Positions 1,382-53,043 of a DNA stretch of 64,000 nt are shown here, piece by piece. The translations under genes were made by a program, and so were the position numbers. Every line of letters begins with the position of its first letter. The first letter of the stretch is position 1. The DNA is from an uncultured Algimonas sp. (GTDB lineage Bacteria > Pseudomonadota > Alphaproteobacteria > Caulobacterales > Maricaulaceae): assembly GCA_964414555.1 (NCBI GenBank), contig CAYPWW010000003.1:59-64058 (forward strand), read 5' to 3'. A model generated the notes under the pieces. That model had not been told where the DNA came from and searched no databases. It saw nothing but the letters and a program-made list of their open reading frames with translations.

Positions 1382-2029
1382 CTAGTGCCGGCGGCGATAG
1401 TTCCGGCGATTATGGCCGCGATTGCGGTTGCGGTAATGGCCGCGTGTCCGATATCCACGATTGTAATAGCCGCGATTGCCTGTGTTCAGGCTAATCGAAA
1501 TACCCGTGCGGGGGCGCACATAATAGGGCTGCGGATCATAGCGATAGAAGGGCTGTTGATAGGTCGTCGTGTAGGTCGTGTTGTACCCTTGATTATAATA
1601 GGGCTGGCTATAGCCGTATTGGCTGTGACCTTGCGGATAGTGATAGGTCGTATTGCCTTGGTAATAACCCCCCTGATTATAGCCGCCGCCATGATAATAC
1701 CCGGTCTGCTGATTGTAGTAGCCACCTTGGTTGTAGCCACCCTGATAATAGCCACGATTATTGGAACGCCCATCGCCTGCGATGGCTGCACCTGCGACAC
1801 CGCCGATGACTGCGCCGAGGACGGAGCCTTCGGTCCGCGCGCCGTTTCCGGCCAGTTGGCTTCCTGCAACACCGCCGATAACTGCGCCAATGCCGGCGCC
1901 GATCAGTTGATCTGAATTACCGCTTTGATGTTGGTGGTGATAACCCGTGTTGTGAGCCGAAGCAGCCACACTGAGGCTGGCTGTGACGGCGAAAGCAGCC
2001 ACGATTTTGAAAGGGGTCGAGTAGCGCAT
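1382..2029 (-). CDS. Secreted glycine-zipper 2TM protein with a G/Y/N/Q-rich region and an Arg-rich tail
   Basis: Sec signal ending AASA; LIGAGIGAVIGGVAG...RTEGSVLGAVIGGVAGAAI; low-complexity C-terminal half. Confidence 0.85.
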   Translation of the reverse strand: MRYSTPFKIVAAFAVTASLSVAASAHNTGYHHQHQSGNSDQLIGAGIGAVIGGVAGSQLAGNGARTEGSVLGAVIGGVAGAAIAGDGRSNNRGYYQGGYNQGGYYNQQTGYYHGGGYNQGGYYQGNTTYHYPQGHSQYGYSQPYYNQGYNTTYTTTYQQPFYRYDPQPYYVRPRTGISISLNTGNRGYYNRGYRTRGHYRNRNRGHNRRNYRRRH

Positions 2030-2224: not shown

Positions 2225-3742
2225 TTAGTGGTGAGACTTACAGCTCGATGCACTGTGGCGCGCACCCGGGATTTCGCGACCTTTATCGTCATACATGCGC
2301 TTGCCGTCGCCGTAGCAATAGCCTTCTTGGCTATGCACGACTGTGTCTGGAACGCTGTGACCCGACTCATAGGCCGTGTGTGTAGGTGCCAGTGTCACAC
2401 AGCTGCTGCTGTGGTGAGCCGTACCTGCATGACAGACGGGCTGTGCGGGTGTGTAGATCGGCGCACTTTCAATGATGCGGGCTGGCGCTTCACATGTGCC
2501 GTTGCCGAGATCGGTCGTTCCGACGGGGCAAGGCTGGTTCACGACGATTGGCGCGGCACCCATGACGGTACGGGCCGGTTCCTGACATGTGCCATTTCCG
2601 AGATCCGTTGTGCCAGCTGGGCAGGCTTGTGGGATCACGATTGGGGCGGCACCCATGACGGTACGAGCAGGTTCTTGGCATGTGCCATCACCCATATCCG
2701 TTGTGCCAGATGGGCAGGCTTGCGGGATCACGATTGGGGCCGCGCCAATGACTGTACGGGCAGGTTCTTGGCATGTGCCATTACCCATATCCGTGGTTCC
2801 AGCAGGACAGCTGGACGGAATAACAGTTGGTGCAGGGGCGTAGACCGTCTTGGCCGGCTCCATGCAGGTGCCATTGCCTTGATCCATTGTGCCTGCTGGG
2901 CAGGTGGAGGGGATCACGGTTGGGGCAGGTTCATACACTGTGCGCGGGGCGCTCATGCAGGTGCCGTCTGATTGCATGGTTGTCCCGGATGGGCAGGGCG
3001 CTTCAATCACGACGCGCGGGCGCTCAACGATTTGCGGCTGAACTGTCGTAACCTGCTGTGAGTAGCTGGTGACAGGGATAACGGGGCCGGAAACATAACC
3101 ACCGGATGCGTAAGTTGTCGGGGCATAAGCTGGGCCAGCTGGCAGACCTGCGCCATAACCATATCCGGCTGGTGCATAGCCAGCGTTGCCGTATCCGGCC
3201 GTCGTATATCCACCAACGGGACCATAGGCAGGGGCGTAACCGCCGCCGGCATATCCACCGCCAGCATAGCCGCCACCCGTGTATCCGCCGTAGCGACCAT
3301 TAGAGCGACCGTTCCGGTTTGCGAGGGCATAGCCTGCGACACCGCCGAGCACGGCGCCAAGGGCTGTGCCTTCTTCGCGCACGCCGGAGCCTGCGAGGTT
3401 GGAGCCGATCACGCCGCCAAGGCCTGCGCCAATGGCTGTGCCAGCGAGGTTGCGACCGTTAAAGCCGGGGTTGAACTGTCCAGCGTAAGGGTTGCCGTAA
3501 TAGTTAGACCGCGAGTTACCATAGGCTGCGCCAGCTAAACCACCGACGACAGCGCCGATCGCTGTGCCTTCGTCGCGATTGCCTGCGCCCGCGATATTGG
3601 AACCAATAGCGCCGCCAATACCGGCACCAACAGTCCCGCCAAGGACGGTGTTATTATCAAATCCAGGGAAAAACTGCGCTGAGGCTGTCGCTGGAAGACA
3701 GGCGATGGCCGCAATTGCGGCGGTCGAGAGTAAAAGTTTCAT
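2225..3742 (-). CDS. Secreted protein with two glycine-zipper 2TM units and six 31-aa Cys-containing repeats (505 aa)
   Basis: Start moved to ATG 3742 (AGGAG RBS; signal peptide MKLLLSTAA...ASA). Two zipper units, a G/Y/A/P linker, CPxGTxDxGNGTC repeats and a His/Cys-rich C-terminus. Confidence 0.85.
   Translation of the reverse strand: MKLLLSTAAIAAIACLPATASAQFFPGFDNNTVLGGTVGAGIGGAIGSNIAGAGNRDEGTAIGAVVGGLAGAAYGNSRSNYYGNPYAGQFNPGFNGRNLAGTAIGAGLGGVIGSNLAGSGVREEGTALGAVLGGVAGYALANRNGRSNGRYGGYTGGGYAGGGYAGGGYAPAYGPVGGYTTAGYGNAGYAPAGYGYGAGLPAGPAYAPTTYASGGYVSGPVIPVTSYSQQVTTVQPQIVERPRVVIEAPCPSGTTMQSDGTCMSAPRTVYEPAPTVIPSTCPAGTMDQGNGTCMEPAKTVYAPAPTVIPSSCPAGTTDMGNGTCQEPARTVIGAAPIVIPQACPSGTTDMGDGTCQEPARTVMGAAPIVIPQACPAGTTDLGNGTCQEPARTVMGAAPIVVNQPCPVGTTDLGNGTCEAPARIIESAPIYTPAQPVCHAGTAHHSSSCVTLAPTHTAYESGHSVPDTVVHSQEGYCYGDGKRMYDDKGREIPGARHSASSCKSHH
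2435..2995 (-). repeat. Six tandem coding repeats of about 93 bp (31 aa)
   Basis: Protein units such as CPAGTTDMGNGTCQEPARTVIGAAPIVIPQA. The central copies are near-identical at DNA level (gcatgtgcca...tccgt). Confidence 0.9.
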
Positions 3743-3916
3743 GCGTGCGGCTCCTTGAAGCAGACCTATTAAGGCGGCTCCACGAACCACCCACCATTTT
3801 CGGTTTGGCTTGCTTGGTGCAAGTCTCACGCCGAAATCACGTTTCTTATAGCATTTTTTTCCCGCGAAACCGAAGGCGCTTCGCCTGAGACGGGAGTCGC
3901 GGGTATAAAATAAGGT

Positions 3917-3944
3917 AAAACCCGACCTCCGCAAGGAGGCCGGG
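3917..3944 (-). terminator. Intrinsic terminator downstream of the third glycine-zipper gene
   Basis: AAAA-CCCGACCTCC-GCAA-GGAGGCCGGG. Confidence 0.75.
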
Positions 3945-3978
3945 TCACACATAGAGTTTTCACATGGGGACGGAAAAC

Positions 3979-4737
3979 TTAGTGATCAGAGTAACAAAGG
4001 TTCCGCGAGTTGCCGTGGTAATGGCCGCGACGGTATCCGTCATTATAGCCGTAACCTTGGTTGCGATTGTAGCCGGAGTTCCGGTCACGTTGGCGGTCGG
4101 TGAACTTCTTGATCCGACGACGCTCGCGCTTCAGTTCTTTCAGCTTGCGACCATTGCGTTCCAAACGACGCTCTAGGCGCGGGTTGTAGTGTCGCGAATA
4201 GCGAATCTCACGCTTCAGCTGATCGCCCCTGCGGCGCACATCTTCGATCTGGCGATCAATCTGGTACAGCGGATCATTATAACGGTTGTTATAGCCGTAA
4301 GAGCTGTTCCCGCGATTGCGCCCATGGGCATGACCGTGGCCACGTCCAGGGTGGCCGACCGTCTGCACGTGCGGGCTGGTATAAACCGTCCGCGTTTGTG
4401 TGCGCGTCGGATAGTGACGCGTGGTCTGGCCTTGCGTCGTGTAGACGCGGTTCCGATCGTAACGCTTCTCGCAATCCGTCGCACCGTCACCGATGGCTGC
4501 GCCGGCGATCCCGCCGATAATCGCGCCTAAGACGGCACCTTCTGTTCTGTCGCCACGTCCGGCGATACCTTCGCCAATGACTGTGCCGAGCGAGCCGCCG
4601 ACGACACCACCCAGGATGGCGTTTTCGGTATCCGAGCAGTTGTTACGGTAATCTGCCGCAGAGGCGCTGGCGGGGAAAACGAGAGTTGCCGCTGCCAGTG
4701 TGACAGCAGCGAGAGCGGTTTTGACAGTCTTGGTCAT
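3979..4737 (-). CDS. Secreted glycine-zipper 2TM protein with a basic coiled-coil C-terminal region
   Basis: Start moved to ATG 4737 (CAGGAG RBS). Signal peptide ending ASA; ILGGVVGGSLG...RTEGAVLGAIIGGIAGAAIG. Confidence 0.85.
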   Translation of the reverse strand: MTKTVKTALAAVTLAAATLVFPASASAADYRNNCSDTENAILGGVVGGSLGTVIGEGIAGRGDRTEGAVLGAIIGGIAGAAIGDGATDCEKRYDRNRVYTTQGQTTRHYPTRTQTRTVYTSPHVQTVGHPGRGHGHAHGRNRGNSSYGYNNRYNDPLYQIDRQIEDVRRRGDQLKREIRYSRHYNPRLERRLERNGRKLKELKRERRRIKKFTDRQRDRNSGYNRNQGYGYNDGYRRGHYHGNSRNLCYSDH

Positions 4738-4860
4738 GGTAGTCTCCTGTTTGGGCAACGACGTTGGGAAGATGCCCAGGTCGATGATTCCTTTTTAGGA
4801 GACGGCGTTTGAACTCACTCTGATTTTGGAATTCATACTCGGTTCAAGAAACCTTAACTC

Positions 4861-50998: not shown

Positions 50999-51001
50999 TA
51001 T

Positions 51002-52396
51002 ATGACGGGGGCGCCGCGATCACTCGTCAGCTCGCTTGTACGCGGGGCGGCACTTTGGGCGATTCCGGCGCTGGTTTTAGCCGCGCTGGCCCTGACTTGG
51101 GTCTCCCGTAGCTCAACATATCGTGGTTTTGATGAACCTCTAGAGGCGGCTGTGACGGGCCTTATTGCGTCCGTCGAAGTGCGCGAAGACGGGACGTTGC
51201 GCTTGTCGCGTGAACTGCCGGACCCGCGATATCAGCGCGCATTATCAGGTCGATATTGGGTCATGGGAATCCTCGGCGAAGGCGGAGAAATTCTGCCCGC
51301 TCTCTCCTCCCGCTCGCTTTATGGCGCGCGGTTTTATGTGAATGATAATGCAGAGGCTGCGCTAGCCGCCGTTACGGCTGAACCCGTCCGGTTTATTACG
51401 GCAGGACCGGATGTCGAAGCGGATGAGACCTTGCGCGTAGTTGCGCGACAGGTTGCATTTGAGGGCGTCACGGACCCTATTATCGTCGCGGCCGCAGCCG
51501 ACCGTCAGCCTGTGATCGAGTCGATCCGGACCTTGGTTCTGACGATGCTTAGTTTGATGCTCTTGGTCACGATTGGCCTGGTTTTCGCCGTTTATACGCA
51601 GGTGCGCTTGGGCCTGCGCCCGCTGTTTGATTTGCGGAACCGGATTGCAGATGTGCGGGAAGGGCGTGCGGCACAGGTCGACGGCTCTTACCCGCCTGAA
51701 ATCGCGCCGCTGGCGGGCGAGCTGAATAGCTTGATCGCGCATAATAAAAATATCGTGGAGCGTGCGCAAACCCATGTGGGTAATCTTGCCCATGCGCTGA
51801 AAACGCCCATCGCGGTTCTTCGCAATGAGGCCGCAGCTGGCAAAACCACAAATTCAGATGTCGTCTCTCGTCAGACTGAGAGCATGTCCGCGCAAGTGGA
51901 CCATCATTTGCGTCGCGCGCGGGCGGCTGCGCGGGGGCAAGCCATTGGTGTACGGGCGGATGTCGATCCTGTCGTGGATGGTCTGGTCCGAACACTGCCG
52001 CGCATTTACCGCGAGCGTGACCTGATCATCACGAAATCAGGCGAGACCGGTCTGCGCTTTCGCGGTCATCCGAGAGACCTTGAAGATATGGTCGGGAATC
52101 TGATGGATAATGCTGCGAAATGGACCCGCGGCAAGGTCGAGGTGGATATCCGACGCAGCGCGCCAAGCCAGTTTACGATCTCCGTCCGCGACTCAGGTCC
52201 GGGTCTAGAGCCTGAGCAATATGATGAAGCCCTCAAGCGCGGCGCTCGGCTGGATGAAGCTACGCCCGGCACAGGTCTGGGCCTGTCCATCGTCAGTGAT
52301 CTGGCGGAAGCCTATAATGGGTCTTTGGAACTAGGTCGGGCTAAGATTGGCGGTTTAGAGGCTGTTTTGCGTTTGCCCGCCGCACCAGACGGATGA
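51002..52396 (+). CDS. Sensor histidine kinase (FeuQ/PhoQ-like)
   Basis: Two TMs, HAMP (YPPEIAPL), LAHALKTP, NLMDNAAKW, DSGPG, GTGLGL. Confidence 0.93.
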   Translation: MTGAPRSLVSSLVRGAALWAIPALVLAALALTWVSRSSTYRGFDEPLEAAVTGLIASVEVREDGTLRLSRELPDPRYQRALSGRYWVMGILGEGGEILPALSSRSLYGARFYVNDNAEAALAAVTAEPVRFITAGPDVEADETLRVVARQVAFEGVTDPIIVAAAADRQPVIESIRTLVLTMLSLMLLVTIGLVFAVYTQVRLGLRPLFDLRNRIADVREGRAAQVDGSYPPEIAPLAGELNSLIAHNKNIVERAQTHVGNLAHALKTPIAVLRNEAAAGKTTNSDVVSRQTESMSAQVDHHLRRARAAARGQAIGVRADVDPVVDGLVRTLPRIYRERDLIITKSGETGLRFRGHPRDLEDMVGNLMDNAAKWTRGKVEVDIRRSAPSQFTISVRDSGPGLEPEQYDEALKRGARLDEATPGTGLGLSIVSDLAEAYNGSLELGRAKIGGLEAVLRLPAAPDG

Positions 52397-53043
52397 GCCA
52401 GCCGCCGCCCACTGCCTTAGAAGATCGTGACGTGCGGGATGGTCGCCTGTTCTCGCCCTCTGCGGGACGAAACAAAGAGGTCGTTTCAAGCGCCTTAGCA
52501 GACCTCCTTCCGCAGGCGGCGTGCGTTCTAGAGATTGCTAGCGGCACGGGCGAGCAGGGCATTGCGACCTGTCTCAAACGCTCTGATCTGCGCTGGCAGT
52601 TCTCTGACCCAGATCCAACCTCGCGCGAGAGCCAAGCGGCATGGATCGCGCATGAAAAGCTAGATCTGCCCGCACCCCTCAACATCAATACGAGCCAAAA
52701 CGAATGGACCGTGGGCTTGCCTCACCTCGACGCTATTTTCTGTGCAAATATGATTCATATCGCCCCGCTTTCCGCGACGGAAGGCTTGGCGGATGGGGCG
52801 AAGGAGAGGCTCGATGGAGAAGGTCTGCTGATCCTTTATGGCCCCTATCTTTTTGGCGAAGACAGCGCGCCGTCCAATTTGGATTTTGATCTCAGCCTAA
52901 AATCCCGAAATCCCGCTTGGGGGGTCCGATCTTTGGACCTCGTTAAGCATATCTTCGCACTACGCGGCTTTAATCTCGCAGAGCTCCGCGCCATGCCAAA
53001 GAACAACCATATTCTGGTGTTCTCTCAGGGCGGGACAAACTGA
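52393..53043 (+). CDS. DUF938 family SAM-dependent methyltransferase
   Basis: FSPSAGRNK, LEIASGTGEQ, CANMIHI, LYGPY, SNLDFDLSLKSRNPAWGVR, MPKNN. Confidence 0.9.
   Translation: MSQPPPTALEDRDVRDGRLFSPSAGRNKEVVSSALADLLPQAACVLEIASGTGEQGIATCLKRSDLRWQFSDPDPTSRESQAAWIAHEKLDLPAPLNINTSQNEWTVGLPHLDAIFCANMIHIAPLSATEGLADGAKERLDGEGLLILYGPYLFGEDSAPSNLDFDLSLKSRNPAWGVRSLDLVKHIFALRGFNLAELRAMPKNNHILVFSQGGTN

What the first reader, a model, noticed from the sequence alone, without database searches (positions are those of the whole stretch)
2435..2995. Six 31-aa CPxGTxDxGNGTC repeats forming a putative disulfide-beaded stalk
Seen: each unit has a 13-residue Cys-to-Cys loop with a DxG[ND]G turn plus an 18-residue Pro/Val-rich spacer. 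Inner copies are almost identical in DNA, implying recent expansion. A His/Cys-rich cap follows (CHAGTAHH...CYGDG...CKSHH). Inference: a length-variable extracellular stalk, possibly binding Ca2+ or another metal. The motif loosely recalls CPxG...C repeats of other secreted proteins, but I cannot assign a family.
Basis: partly seen in the sequence, partly recalled or inferred. Interest (0 to 1): 0.62.

Follow-up and report, generated by a model that had tools for sequence, protein, structure and literature searches.

The report
Disulfide-bead stalk on glycine-zipper envelope protein
A marine stalked bacterium makes an exported envelope protein with a SlyB-like glycine-zipper membrane anchor and a chain of six small cysteine-stapled hairpins on proline-rich spacers; the repeat is real, uncatalogued and lineage-restricted, but it is an ordinary kind of modular spacer.

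Summary
The minus-strand gene 2225-3742 (505 aa) carries six in-phase 31-aa units, each a 13-residue loop C-P-x-G-T-x5-G-T-C plus an 18-residue Pro/Val spacer. A degenerate seventh loop and a Cys-bridged, His-terminated tail follow. One detail is overstated: the inner copies are 73-88% identical in DNA, not almost identical.

It has a Sec signal peptide, two SlyB-like glycine-zipper hairpins (PF05433) and a Gly/Tyr-rich linker.

Relatives occur only in part of Robiginitomaculaceae (Litorimonas, Algimonas, Hellea, Robiginitomaculum) and carry 2-10 units, so stalk length does vary. First and last units are orthologous between species, while the middle ones turn over. The mature Cys count is even in 29 of 30 relatives, DsbB is present, and AlphaFold2 models each unit as a beta-hairpin between low-confidence linkers.

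No Pfam, NCBIfam or PDB family matches the unit. Only 244 of 1.84 billion representative proteins match its profile. These include a second local family, single C-terminal units, insect Scarface-type proteases and an actinobacterial LPxTG protein.

Best reading: an outer-membrane-anchored spacer or tether, probably periplasmic. Extracellular location and metal binding remain untested. Interest is moderate to low.

The parts
2225..3742 (-). Complete gene ('family A'), 505 aa plus stop. The true start is the ATG at 3742-3740, not the upstream ATG at 3952.
   Evidence: ORF list and translation. Homologues start at the same MK(L/F)LLSTAA. An AAGGAG lies 8 nt upstream.
3751..3756 (-). Shine-Dalgarno AAGGAG
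   Evidence: Read directly from the sequence.
3677..3742 (-). Sec (signal peptidase I) signal peptide MKLLLSTAAIAAIACLPATASA|Q. It has no lipobox.
   Evidence: Sequence. P17, A20, A22 and Q23 are nearly invariant in 20 homologues, and the h-region Cys is not conserved.
3515..3655 (-). Glycine-zipper helical hairpin 1 (residues 30-76)
   Evidence: Pfam hits PF05433 and PF13441. AF2 helices 30-50 and 56-77 at pLDDT 73-80. Match to SlyB 7ojf: E=0.018 by phmmer, and 40% identity over 50 columns in the fold search, a match that is not significant on its own (E=2.1, rank 20).
3326..3442 (-). Glycine-zipper helical hairpin 2 (residues 101-139)
   Evidence: PF05433 at 31.4 bits against a 24.2 cut-off, best stretch 101-139. 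AF2 helices 96-116 and 122-143.
3098..3295 (-). Gly/Tyr-rich low-complexity linker (residues ~150-215, GGYAGGGYAGGGY...)
   Evidence: Sequence. AF2 pLDDT 32-37, modelled as disordered.
3068..3088 (-). Conserved GPVIPVT motif ahead of the array
   Evidence: G219, P220, P223, V224 and T225 are invariant or nearly invariant in 20 homologues.
2456..3013 (-). Array of six 31-aa units (residues 244-429). The Cys-to-Cys loops lie at 2957-2995, 2864-2902, 2771-2809, 2678-2716, 2585-2623 and 2492-2530.
   Evidence: AF2 places a beta-hairpin in each unit (pLDDT 63-77) with linkers below 50. The single-unit model has pLDDT 78.
2399..2434 (-). Degenerate seventh loop CHAGTAHHSSSC (12 residues). Relatives have CP(A/T)G(S/T)(Y/F)...C here.
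2228..2317 (-). Terminal knob C476...C501, YCYGDGKRMYDDKGREI...CKSHH, ending in His
   Evidence: Y475, C476, Y477, Y484, D485, G488, I491 and C501 are nearly invariant. Most tails in relatives end C-x-x-(H)-H. The motif occurs only in this protein in the own genome.
1382..2029 (-). Flanking paralogue: signal peptide + glycine zipper + G/Y/N/Q-rich region + Arg-rich tail ending in His
   Evidence: PF05433 at 25.7 bits. Same position in Litorimonas sp. WD9-15.
3979..4758 (-). Flanking paralogue: signal peptide + Cys-flanked glycine zipper + basic coiled-coil-like segment, ending ...LCYSDH
   Evidence: Weak Pfam and NCBIfam glycine-zipper hits: PF05433 at 22.0 bits, below the 24.2 cut-off, and YiaD_Gzip E=2e-7. 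Same position in L016. A terminator-like hairpin lies at about 3925-3955 between it and the family A gene.

Best explanation
The gene encodes an exported cell-envelope protein of a Litorimonas/Algimonas-like marine prosthecate alphaproteobacterium.

Shown:
- A Sec signal peptide without a lipobox.
- Two SlyB/YiaD-type glycine-zipper helical hairpins.
- A disordered Gly/Tyr-rich linker.
- Six strictly 31-residue units, each a 13-residue Cys-to-Cys loop C-P-x-G-T-T-D-x-G-[ND]-G-T-C followed by a conserved Pro/Val spacer (QEPA[KR]TVxGxAPIVIPQx).
- A degenerate seventh loop.
- A 26-residue Cys-bridged knob ending in His.

Inferred:
- After export, DsbA/DsbB oxidise each Cys pair, so every unit becomes a stapled beta-hairpin bead with a [DN]-G turn.
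- The beads and stiff Pro-rich spacers form a protease-resistant, semi-extended stalk. Unequal recombination in the middle of the array changes its length (2-10 units among relatives).
- The glycine zippers embed the protein in the outer membrane, as in SlyB. The stalk holds the terminal knob at a distance, most likely across the periplasm as a spacer or tether towards peptidoglycan or another envelope partner, less likely on the cell surface.

The ligand of the knob and the exact compartment are unknown.
For: Architecture:
- Pfam PF05433 scores 31.4 bits against a 24.2 cut-off, with two stretches.
- NCBIfam gives a partial YiaD_Gzip_OmpA match to the zipper only.
- SlyB (7ojf) is the only PDB sequence hit (E=0.018). 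It reappears in the fold search with 40% identity over 50 columns, though that match is not significant on its own (E=2.1, rank 20).
- AF2 gives helical hairpins at pLDDT 70-80, a hairpin in each unit at 63-77, and linkers below 50. The single-unit model with 86 aligned units reaches pLDDT 78, with beta-bridges flanking a five-residue turn.

Export and oxidation:
- The signal-peptide residues are conserved.
- The mature Cys count is even in 29 of 30 relatives, and the one odd case is cut by a contig end. Most have no Cys upstream of the array.
- DsbB is present in the genome.

Length variation and turnover:
- Relatives carry 2-10 units. The 31-aa period is strict in the Litorimonas/Algimonas clade, while Hellea and Robiginitomaculum have irregular 2-4 unit versions.
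- First units best match first units in 20 of 23 cases, and last units match last units in 20 of 23. Inner units match within the same protein about half the time.

Spacer use elsewhere:
- The same loop lies just before the LPxTG anchor of an actinobacterial SpaA-type surface protein.
- It lies between the lipobox and LysM of a lipoprotein.
- It lies between the CLIP domains of insect Scarface-type proteases.

Genomic setting:
- The gene is chromosomal with stable synteny, aroC-esterase-zipper-family A-zipper-tlyA-dxs.
Against: - Localisation is not shown. The E. coli glycine-zipper proteins are lipoproteins and this one is not, and the Rickettsia 17-kDa member is called a surface antigen.
- The whole-protein AF2 model is poor (mean pLDDT 54), and I could not measure Cys-Cys distances.
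- The loop is more conserved than a mere staple needs (T5, T6, Q/L8, D/N10, G11 and T12 across 294 units). Single units also cap the C-termini of unrelated secreted proteins in the same genome. Both points hint at a binding or recognition role rather than pure spacing.
- The spacer is also highly conserved, so it may form a structure or oligomer interface that AF2 misses.
- A count varying from 2 to 10 argues against a strict molecular ruler.
Confidence: 0.55

Rival explanations
1. The loops are small ligand-binding or recognition modules, for example for peptidoglycan, an envelope or holdfast polysaccharide, or an algal surface glycan. On this reading the array is a multivalent, avidity-based adhesin or anchor rather than a passive spacer.
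For: - Loop residues beyond Cys, Pro and Gly are nearly fixed over 294 units from two protein families.
- The own genome also carries single units at the extreme C-terminus of two otherwise unrelated secreted proteins (...ANCPAGTTPQPNGTCLLN and ...IACPEGTTAQPDGTCMMDAE), which look like a tag.
- The module is confined to a clade of surface-attached marine bacteria.
Against: - No similarity to any known carbohydrate- or peptidoglycan-binding module.
- In a 13-residue loop most residues may be fixed for folding alone: Thr for strand propensity and [DN]-G for the turn.
- Look-alike units in insect proteases and an LPxTG protein sit in linker positions.
Confidence: 0.25
2. The array is a Ca2+-rigidified rod. 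D7, N/D10 and the Glu two residues after the second Cys would coordinate Ca2+ in seawater and stiffen the stalk, as in Ca2+-dependent extender domains of large adhesins. This is compatible with the best explanation.
For: In inner units of the regular 31-aa arrays, D7 is 100%, N/D10 is 100% and E(+2) is 95% conserved. The organisms are marine.
Against: - In the sister family, position 7 is Ala in 80% of units, and in Hellea-type family A it varies.
- The loop matches neither DxDxDG nor the RTX GGxGxD pattern.
- [DN]-G is explained by a type I' turn.
- No calcium-binding family was hit.
Confidence: 0.2
3. It is a glycine-zipper toxin or bacteriocin of the Caulobacter CdzC/CdzD kind (PMC5380434, found), with the repeats acting as a delivery arm.
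For: It is a glycine-zipper protein in a relative of Caulobacter, with three paralogues side by side.
Against: - It has a classical Sec signal rather than a type I secretion substrate.
- No T1SS or immunity genes lie nearby.
- The locus sits among housekeeping genes with conserved synteny across genera.
- The protein is about 500 aa with a large non-zipper part.
Confidence: 0.03

Closest known systems
SlyB / YfgH / OsmB / YiaD glycine-zipper outer-membrane proteins (Pfam PF05433, Rick_17kDa_Anti)
   Same: GxxxG-rich two-helix hairpin. It scores above the Pfam cut-off and SlyB is the only PDB sequence hit. YiaD shares the logic of a zipper anchor plus a C-terminal functional domain. These proteins stabilise the outer membrane under stress (10.64898/2025.12.22.696046).
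   Different: No lipobox, so it is not a lipoprotein. It has two zippers in tandem, followed by a roughly 360-residue low-complexity and repeat part that none of the E. coli proteins has. There is no OmpA-like domain.
TNF-receptor 'A1' modules and EGF-like disulfide hairpins
   Same: A single-disulfide loop of about 13-17 residues beginning C-P-x-G-T. The only PDB profile matches were CPAGT stretches, one of them in TNFRSF21. Weak fold matches to granulin, megalin EGF and factor IX EGF. A1 module sizes are given in PMC3412742.
   Different: None of those matches is significant (E above 1). A1 modules are always fused to B modules in six-Cys domains, whereas here each loop stands alone between Pro-rich spacers. 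This is a resemblance of shape only.
Unannotated CP(F/S)GTxRQPDGSC repeats of insect Scarface-type CLIP serine-protease homologues (P0022, P0078, P0141)
   Same: Same loop length and C-P-x-G-T...Q-x-D-G-[ST]-C pattern, Pro-rich spacers and 8-21 tandem copies. Profile E=1e-80 for P0022.
   Different: Eukaryotic proteins with different spacers and no glycine zipper. The motif carries little information, so convergence cannot be separated from homology. Pfam does not annotate that region either.
Stalk or spacer repeats ahead of the LPxTG anchor of Gram-positive surface proteins (for example P0093, with SpaA-like domains)
   Same: Six CPAGTTMGxNGTC units sit directly before the sorting signal. That is the usual place of a wall-spanning stalk.
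   Different: Very short spacers (PPVV), a different anchor chemistry and a different phylum.
Braun's lipoprotein Lpp as a periplasmic spacer (own knowledge)
   Same: An outer-membrane anchor at one end and an elongated element whose length could set a distance. Lpp itself is absent from this genome.
   Different: Lpp is a lipidated trimeric coiled coil linked to peptidoglycan through its C-terminal Lys. Family A ends in His and has no coiled coil.

Membership tests
Glycine zipper 2TM domain (PF05433) | Profile match above Pfam's gathering score | tested here: met
   31.4 bits against a 24.2 cut-off, with two stretches at residues 30-76 and 101-139.
Glycine zipper 2TM domain (PF05433) | Helix-turn-helix hairpin with GxxxG faces | tested here: met
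   AF2 helices 30-50/56-77 and 96-116/122-143 at pLDDT 66-80. Aligns to the SlyB hairpin.
SlyB/OsmB/YiaD-type outer-membrane glycine-zipper lipoproteins | Lipobox Cys at the signal-peptide cleavage site | tested here: not met
   The signal ends ATASA|Q. The single h-region Cys is absent from homologues.
YiaD family (NF053611) | Full-length match including the OmpA-like C-terminal domain | tested here: not met
   30.4 bits against a 175 cut-off, covering the zipper part only.
TNFR cysteine-rich domain / EGF-like | Significant sequence or fold match, with A1 module joined to a B module (six Cys per ~40 aa) | tested here: not met
   PDB profile search E=5.8 for TNFRSF21. Foldseek on the unit model gives E of at least 1.7. 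Each unit has only two Cys.
RTX / DxDxDG-type calcium-binding repeats | GGxGxD nonapeptide or DxDxDG loop | tested here: not met
   The loop is C-P-x-G-T-T-D-x-G-[ND]-G-T-C, has at most two acidic or amide side chains, and has a 31-aa period. No Pfam hit.
Any curated repeat family (Pfam-A, NCBIfam) | Profile match to the repeat region | tested here: not met
   Only sub-threshold chance hits: CPW_WPC at 21.2 bits against 23, and TrpM. The look-alike regions of P0022, P0093 and P0141 are also unannotated.
Disulfide-bonded exported protein | Cys pairs actually oxidised | not testable with these tools
   Indirect support only: the signal peptide, an even Cys count in 29 of 30 relatives and DsbB in the genome.
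CdzC/CdzD glycine-zipper bacteriocins | Type I secretion, an adjacent transporter and an immunity gene | tested here: not met
   The protein has a Sec signal. The neighbours are tlyA, dxs, an esterase and aroC.

The most novel reading that the evidence does not exclude
The CPxGT...DGTC bead is the building block of a lineage-specific set of periplasm-spanning tethers in Robiginitomaculaceae, which lack Lpp. Family A would be anchored in the outer membrane by glycine zippers. The sister family B (own genome contig C25) has a signal peptide or lipobox, three beads and an invariant C-terminal ...YLPIRK. Its terminal Arg-Lys recalls the ...YRK end of Braun's lipoprotein, through which L,D-transpeptidases link Lpp to peptidoglycan. 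Bead number would then set the distance between outer membrane and peptidoglycan in these prosthecate bacteria.
Probability: 0.12. Interest if true: 0.7.

Novelty: new variant of a known kind. Interest (0 to 1): 0.36.

Why it matters
It defines an uncatalogued mini-repeat: a 13-residue stapled hairpin with a Pro-rich spacer. It also defines a new architecture for glycine-zipper outer-membrane proteins, a family whose roles outside E. coli are largely unexplored. If the stalk spans the periplasm, a natural series of 2-10 units would offer a way to ask how envelope spacing is set in alphaproteobacteria that lack Lpp. The bead could also serve as a compact, oxidation-dependent linker for protein engineering. 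Otherwise it is a lineage-specific envelope protein of modest general interest.

Tried and rejected
- Pfam and NCBIfam scans of the whole protein, the repeat region, the tail and family B gave no family beyond the glycine zipper.
- A PDB sequence search with the unit profile returned only chance CPAGT matches.
- Foldseek against PDB with the full model and the single-unit model found nothing significant. The full model is too disordered and the unit too small.
- I rejected an N-glycosylation reading of N-G-T. Asn alternates with Asp (56/44% in family A, 99% Asp in family B), and the acidic residue is at -3, not the -2 of the PglB sequon (own knowledge).
- I rejected the plus-strand ORF 2213-2971 as the antisense shadow of the repeat.
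- I rejected the upstream ATG at 3952, because the homologues and the RBS support 3742.
- A MYXO-CTERM, PEP-CTERM or LPxTG sorting signal is ruled out, as there is no C-terminal hydrophobic segment.
- No same-species genome was among the loci (best 62-68% identity).
- A literature search found nothing on this repeat or on envelope proteins of these genera.

Full report
**Observation.** The finding lies on the minus strand, inside the gene 2225-3742. The long ORF runs up to an ATG at 3952. The real start is the ATG at 3742: every homologue begins MK(L/F)LLSTAA there, and AAGGAG sits 8 nt upstream.

Residues 250-417 hold six loops of the form C-P-x-G-T-x5-G-T-C, exactly 31 residues apart. The back-translated loop pattern matches six times at 93-bp spacing, against zero in 100 shuffles. 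Tandem Repeats Finder reports period 93 with score 347. The 18 residues between loops are Pro/Val-rich.

After the array comes CHAGTAHHSSSC. Relatives have CP(A/T)G(S/T)(Y/F)...C at that place, so it is a degenerate seventh loop. Then comes YCYGDGKRMYDDKGREI...CKSHH.

DNA identity between inner units is 88% (u4/u5), 78% (u3/u4) and 73% (u3/u5), and the end units are 45-62% identical to the rest.

**The whole protein.** The N-terminus is a Sec signal peptide ending ATASA|Q. P17, A20, A22 and Q23 are nearly invariant in 20 homologues, and the h-region Cys is not conserved, so there is no lipobox.

Two glycine-zipper 2TM hairpins follow: PF05433 at 31.4 bits against a 24.2 cut-off, residues 30-76 and 101-139. 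SlyB is the only PDB chain found by sequence (E=0.018). It reappears in the fold search with 40% identity over 50 columns, but that match is not significant on its own (E=2.1).

Next comes a Gly/Tyr-rich segment that AF2 leaves disordered, then a conserved GPVIPVT motif, the array, and a knob closed by the nearly invariant pair C476 and C501.

Both neighbouring genes on the same strand (1382-2029 and 3979-4758) also encode a signal peptide plus a glycine zipper with different tails. The arrangement aroC-esterase-zipper-family A-zipper-tlyA-dxs recurs in Litorimonas sp. WD9-15. This is a stable chromosomal locus, not a mobile one.

**Relatives and copy number.** A word-indexed search of 5.8 billion proteins gave only 20 relatives. 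A pattern scan of one genome per GTDB species gave 76 loci. All were from Litorimonas, Algimonas, Hellea, Robiginitomaculum or unnamed Caulobacterales/Hyphomonadaceae MAGs. NCBI places Litorimonas in Robiginitomaculaceae, Maricaulales.

The unit profile matched 15 of 151 sampled genomes of the order. All 15 were in the window's own family, in 6 of its 12 sampled genera.

Family A proteins carry 2-10 units. In the Litorimonas/Algimonas clade the period is strictly 31 aa with 4-10 copies. Hellea and Robiginitomaculum have 2-4 units at irregular spacing. The regular array is therefore a derived, expanded state.

First units are closest to first units of other species in 20 of 23 cases, and last units to last units in 20 of 23. 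About half of the inner units are closest to a neighbour in the same protein, with best within-protein pairs of 68-97% DNA identity. That is the usual picture of unequal recombination in the middle of an array with fixed ends. 'Length-variable' is supported. 'Recent expansion' is only mildly true for this particular gene.

**The unit.** All 294 units collected have a 13-residue loop. Its consensus is C-P-[AS]-G-T-T-[DA]-[QL]-[GS]-[DN]-G-T-C. In the regular arrays the spacer is nearly as conserved as the loop. The inner-unit consensus is IVIPQSCPAGTTDLGNGTCQEPAKTVMGAAP.

AF2 on the full protein with 20 homologues has mean pLDDT 54. It places a two-stranded hairpin in every unit at pLDDT 63-77, with linkers below 50. 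AF2 on one unit with 86 aligned units reaches pLDDT 78. Beta-bridges at T-D and C-Q flank a five-residue turn x-G-[DN]-G-T.

The mature Cys count is even in 29 of 30 relatives, and the exception is truncated by a contig end. Most have no Cys ahead of the array. DsbB is encoded in the genome. The disulfide-bead idea is therefore well supported indirectly, but not shown.

**Is it a known repeat?** No.
- Pfam and NCBIfam give nothing for the array or the tail.
- The unit profile finds only chance CPAGT stretches in PDB.
- Foldseek gives nothing significant.

Against 1.84 billion representative proteins the profile finds 244 at E of 0.001 or better. Most belong to a second local family, family B. 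In the own genome family B lies on contig C25 (L078, 301 aa). It has a signal peptide, QSRYGNVYDYESGxNCGxxC, three loops in Ser/Thr/Tyr/Gly-rich spacers, and an invariant C-terminal YLPIRK.

Other contexts are informative:
- single loops at the very C-terminus of two unrelated secreted proteins of the same genome;
- a lipoprotein with two loops ahead of a LysM domain (P0115);
- an actinobacterial SpaA-type protein with six loops just before its LPxTG-type signal (P0093);
- insect Scarface-type CLIP protease homologues with 8-21 CP(F/S)GTxRQPDGSC loops on Pro-rich spacers (P0022, P0078, P0141).

None of these regions is annotated by Pfam either. Whether the distant ones are homologous or convergent cannot be decided from so short a motif.

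**Mechanism.** The loop's shape recalls the single-disulfide A1 module of TNF receptors (PMC3412742) and EGF-type hairpins. No test reached significance, and the defining pairing with B modules is absent.

[DN]-G is the classic hairpin-turn dipeptide (own knowledge). This explains the conserved 'DxG[ND]G' without invoking metal. Position 7 is Asp in 73% of family A units but Ala in 80% of family B units. In the regular arrays D7, N/D10 and a Glu two residues after the loop are all fixed, so Ca2+ binding remains possible for that subgroup.

The protein has a Sec signal, no beta-barrel or autotransporter part, and no other secretion signal. By default this leaves it in the periplasm or outer membrane. 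SlyB-type zippers sit in the outer membrane and stabilise it under stress (10.64898/2025.12.22.696046).

My best reading is therefore an outer-membrane-anchored protein whose bead-and-spacer stalk holds a small Cys-bridged, His-terminated knob away from the membrane, probably across the periplasm. The analogues above, with an anchor at one end and a wall-binding part at the other, support a spacer role.

Two things argue for a binding or recognition role as the main rival: the very high conservation of the loop surface, and the use of a single loop as a C-terminal cap. A Cdz-like bacteriocin role (PMC5380434) does not fit the Sec signal or the housekeeping neighbourhood.

**Verdict.** This is a real, well-defined, uncatalogued repeat in a new architecture of a known anchor family, confined to one marine alphaproteobacterial lineage. 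The structural description is secure. Location, partner and metal binding are open. Interest is moderate to low.

The more novel possibility is that families A and B are Lpp-substituting periplasmic tethers. Lpp is absent and two YkuD transpeptidases are present. That evidence is thin, and I give the idea about 12%.

Noticed in passing
Own genome contig C25 (L078:1042-1947, + strand); 41 relatives among L033-L076: A second family of about 280-300 aa uses the same loop. It has a signal peptide (a lipobox in some relatives, such as L039 and L066), QSRYGNVYDYESGxNCGxxC, exactly three CPAGTTAQSDGTC loops in Ser/Thr/Tyr/Gly-rich spacers, and a C-terminus that is ...Y(L/M/R)P(I/V)RK in 41 of 41 cases. 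The terminal Arg-Lys recalls the YRK end of Braun's lipoprotein. The genome lacks Lpp and has two YkuD L,D-transpeptidases.
   Followed up: partly
Own genome C1:~51000-52790 (L080) and C14:~1570-2150 (L081): Two unrelated secreted proteins end in a single copy of the loop. One is a 508-aa, very basic Arg/Pro/Thr-rich protein ending ...ANCPAGTTPQPNGTCLLN. The other is a roughly 160-aa acidic protein ending ...IACPEGTTAQPDGTCMMDAE. The loop may act as a C-terminal tag.
   Followed up: partly
window 1382-2029 (-), 2225-3742 (-), 3979-4758 (-): All three adjacent glycine-zipper paralogues end in a His-containing basic tail with a C-terminal His...RNYRRRH...SSCKSHH and ...GHYHGNSRNLCYSDH. The same holds in Litorimonas sp. 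WD9-15 (L016). A shared C-terminal metal site or recognition signal is possible.
   Followed up: no
Proteins P0022, P0078, P0141: Insect Scarface-type CLIP-domain serine-protease homologues carry 8-21 tandem CP(F/S)GTxRQPDGSC loops on Pro-rich spacers between their CLIP domains. Pfam does not annotate this region.
   Followed up: partly
window 3925-3955 (-): A G+C-rich hairpin followed by a T run (GACCCGGCCTCC-TTGC-GGAGGTCGGGTTTTA) lies just after the stop of the upstream zipper gene. The family A gene is therefore probably its own transcription unit. The consensus scan did not list this site.
   Followed up: no
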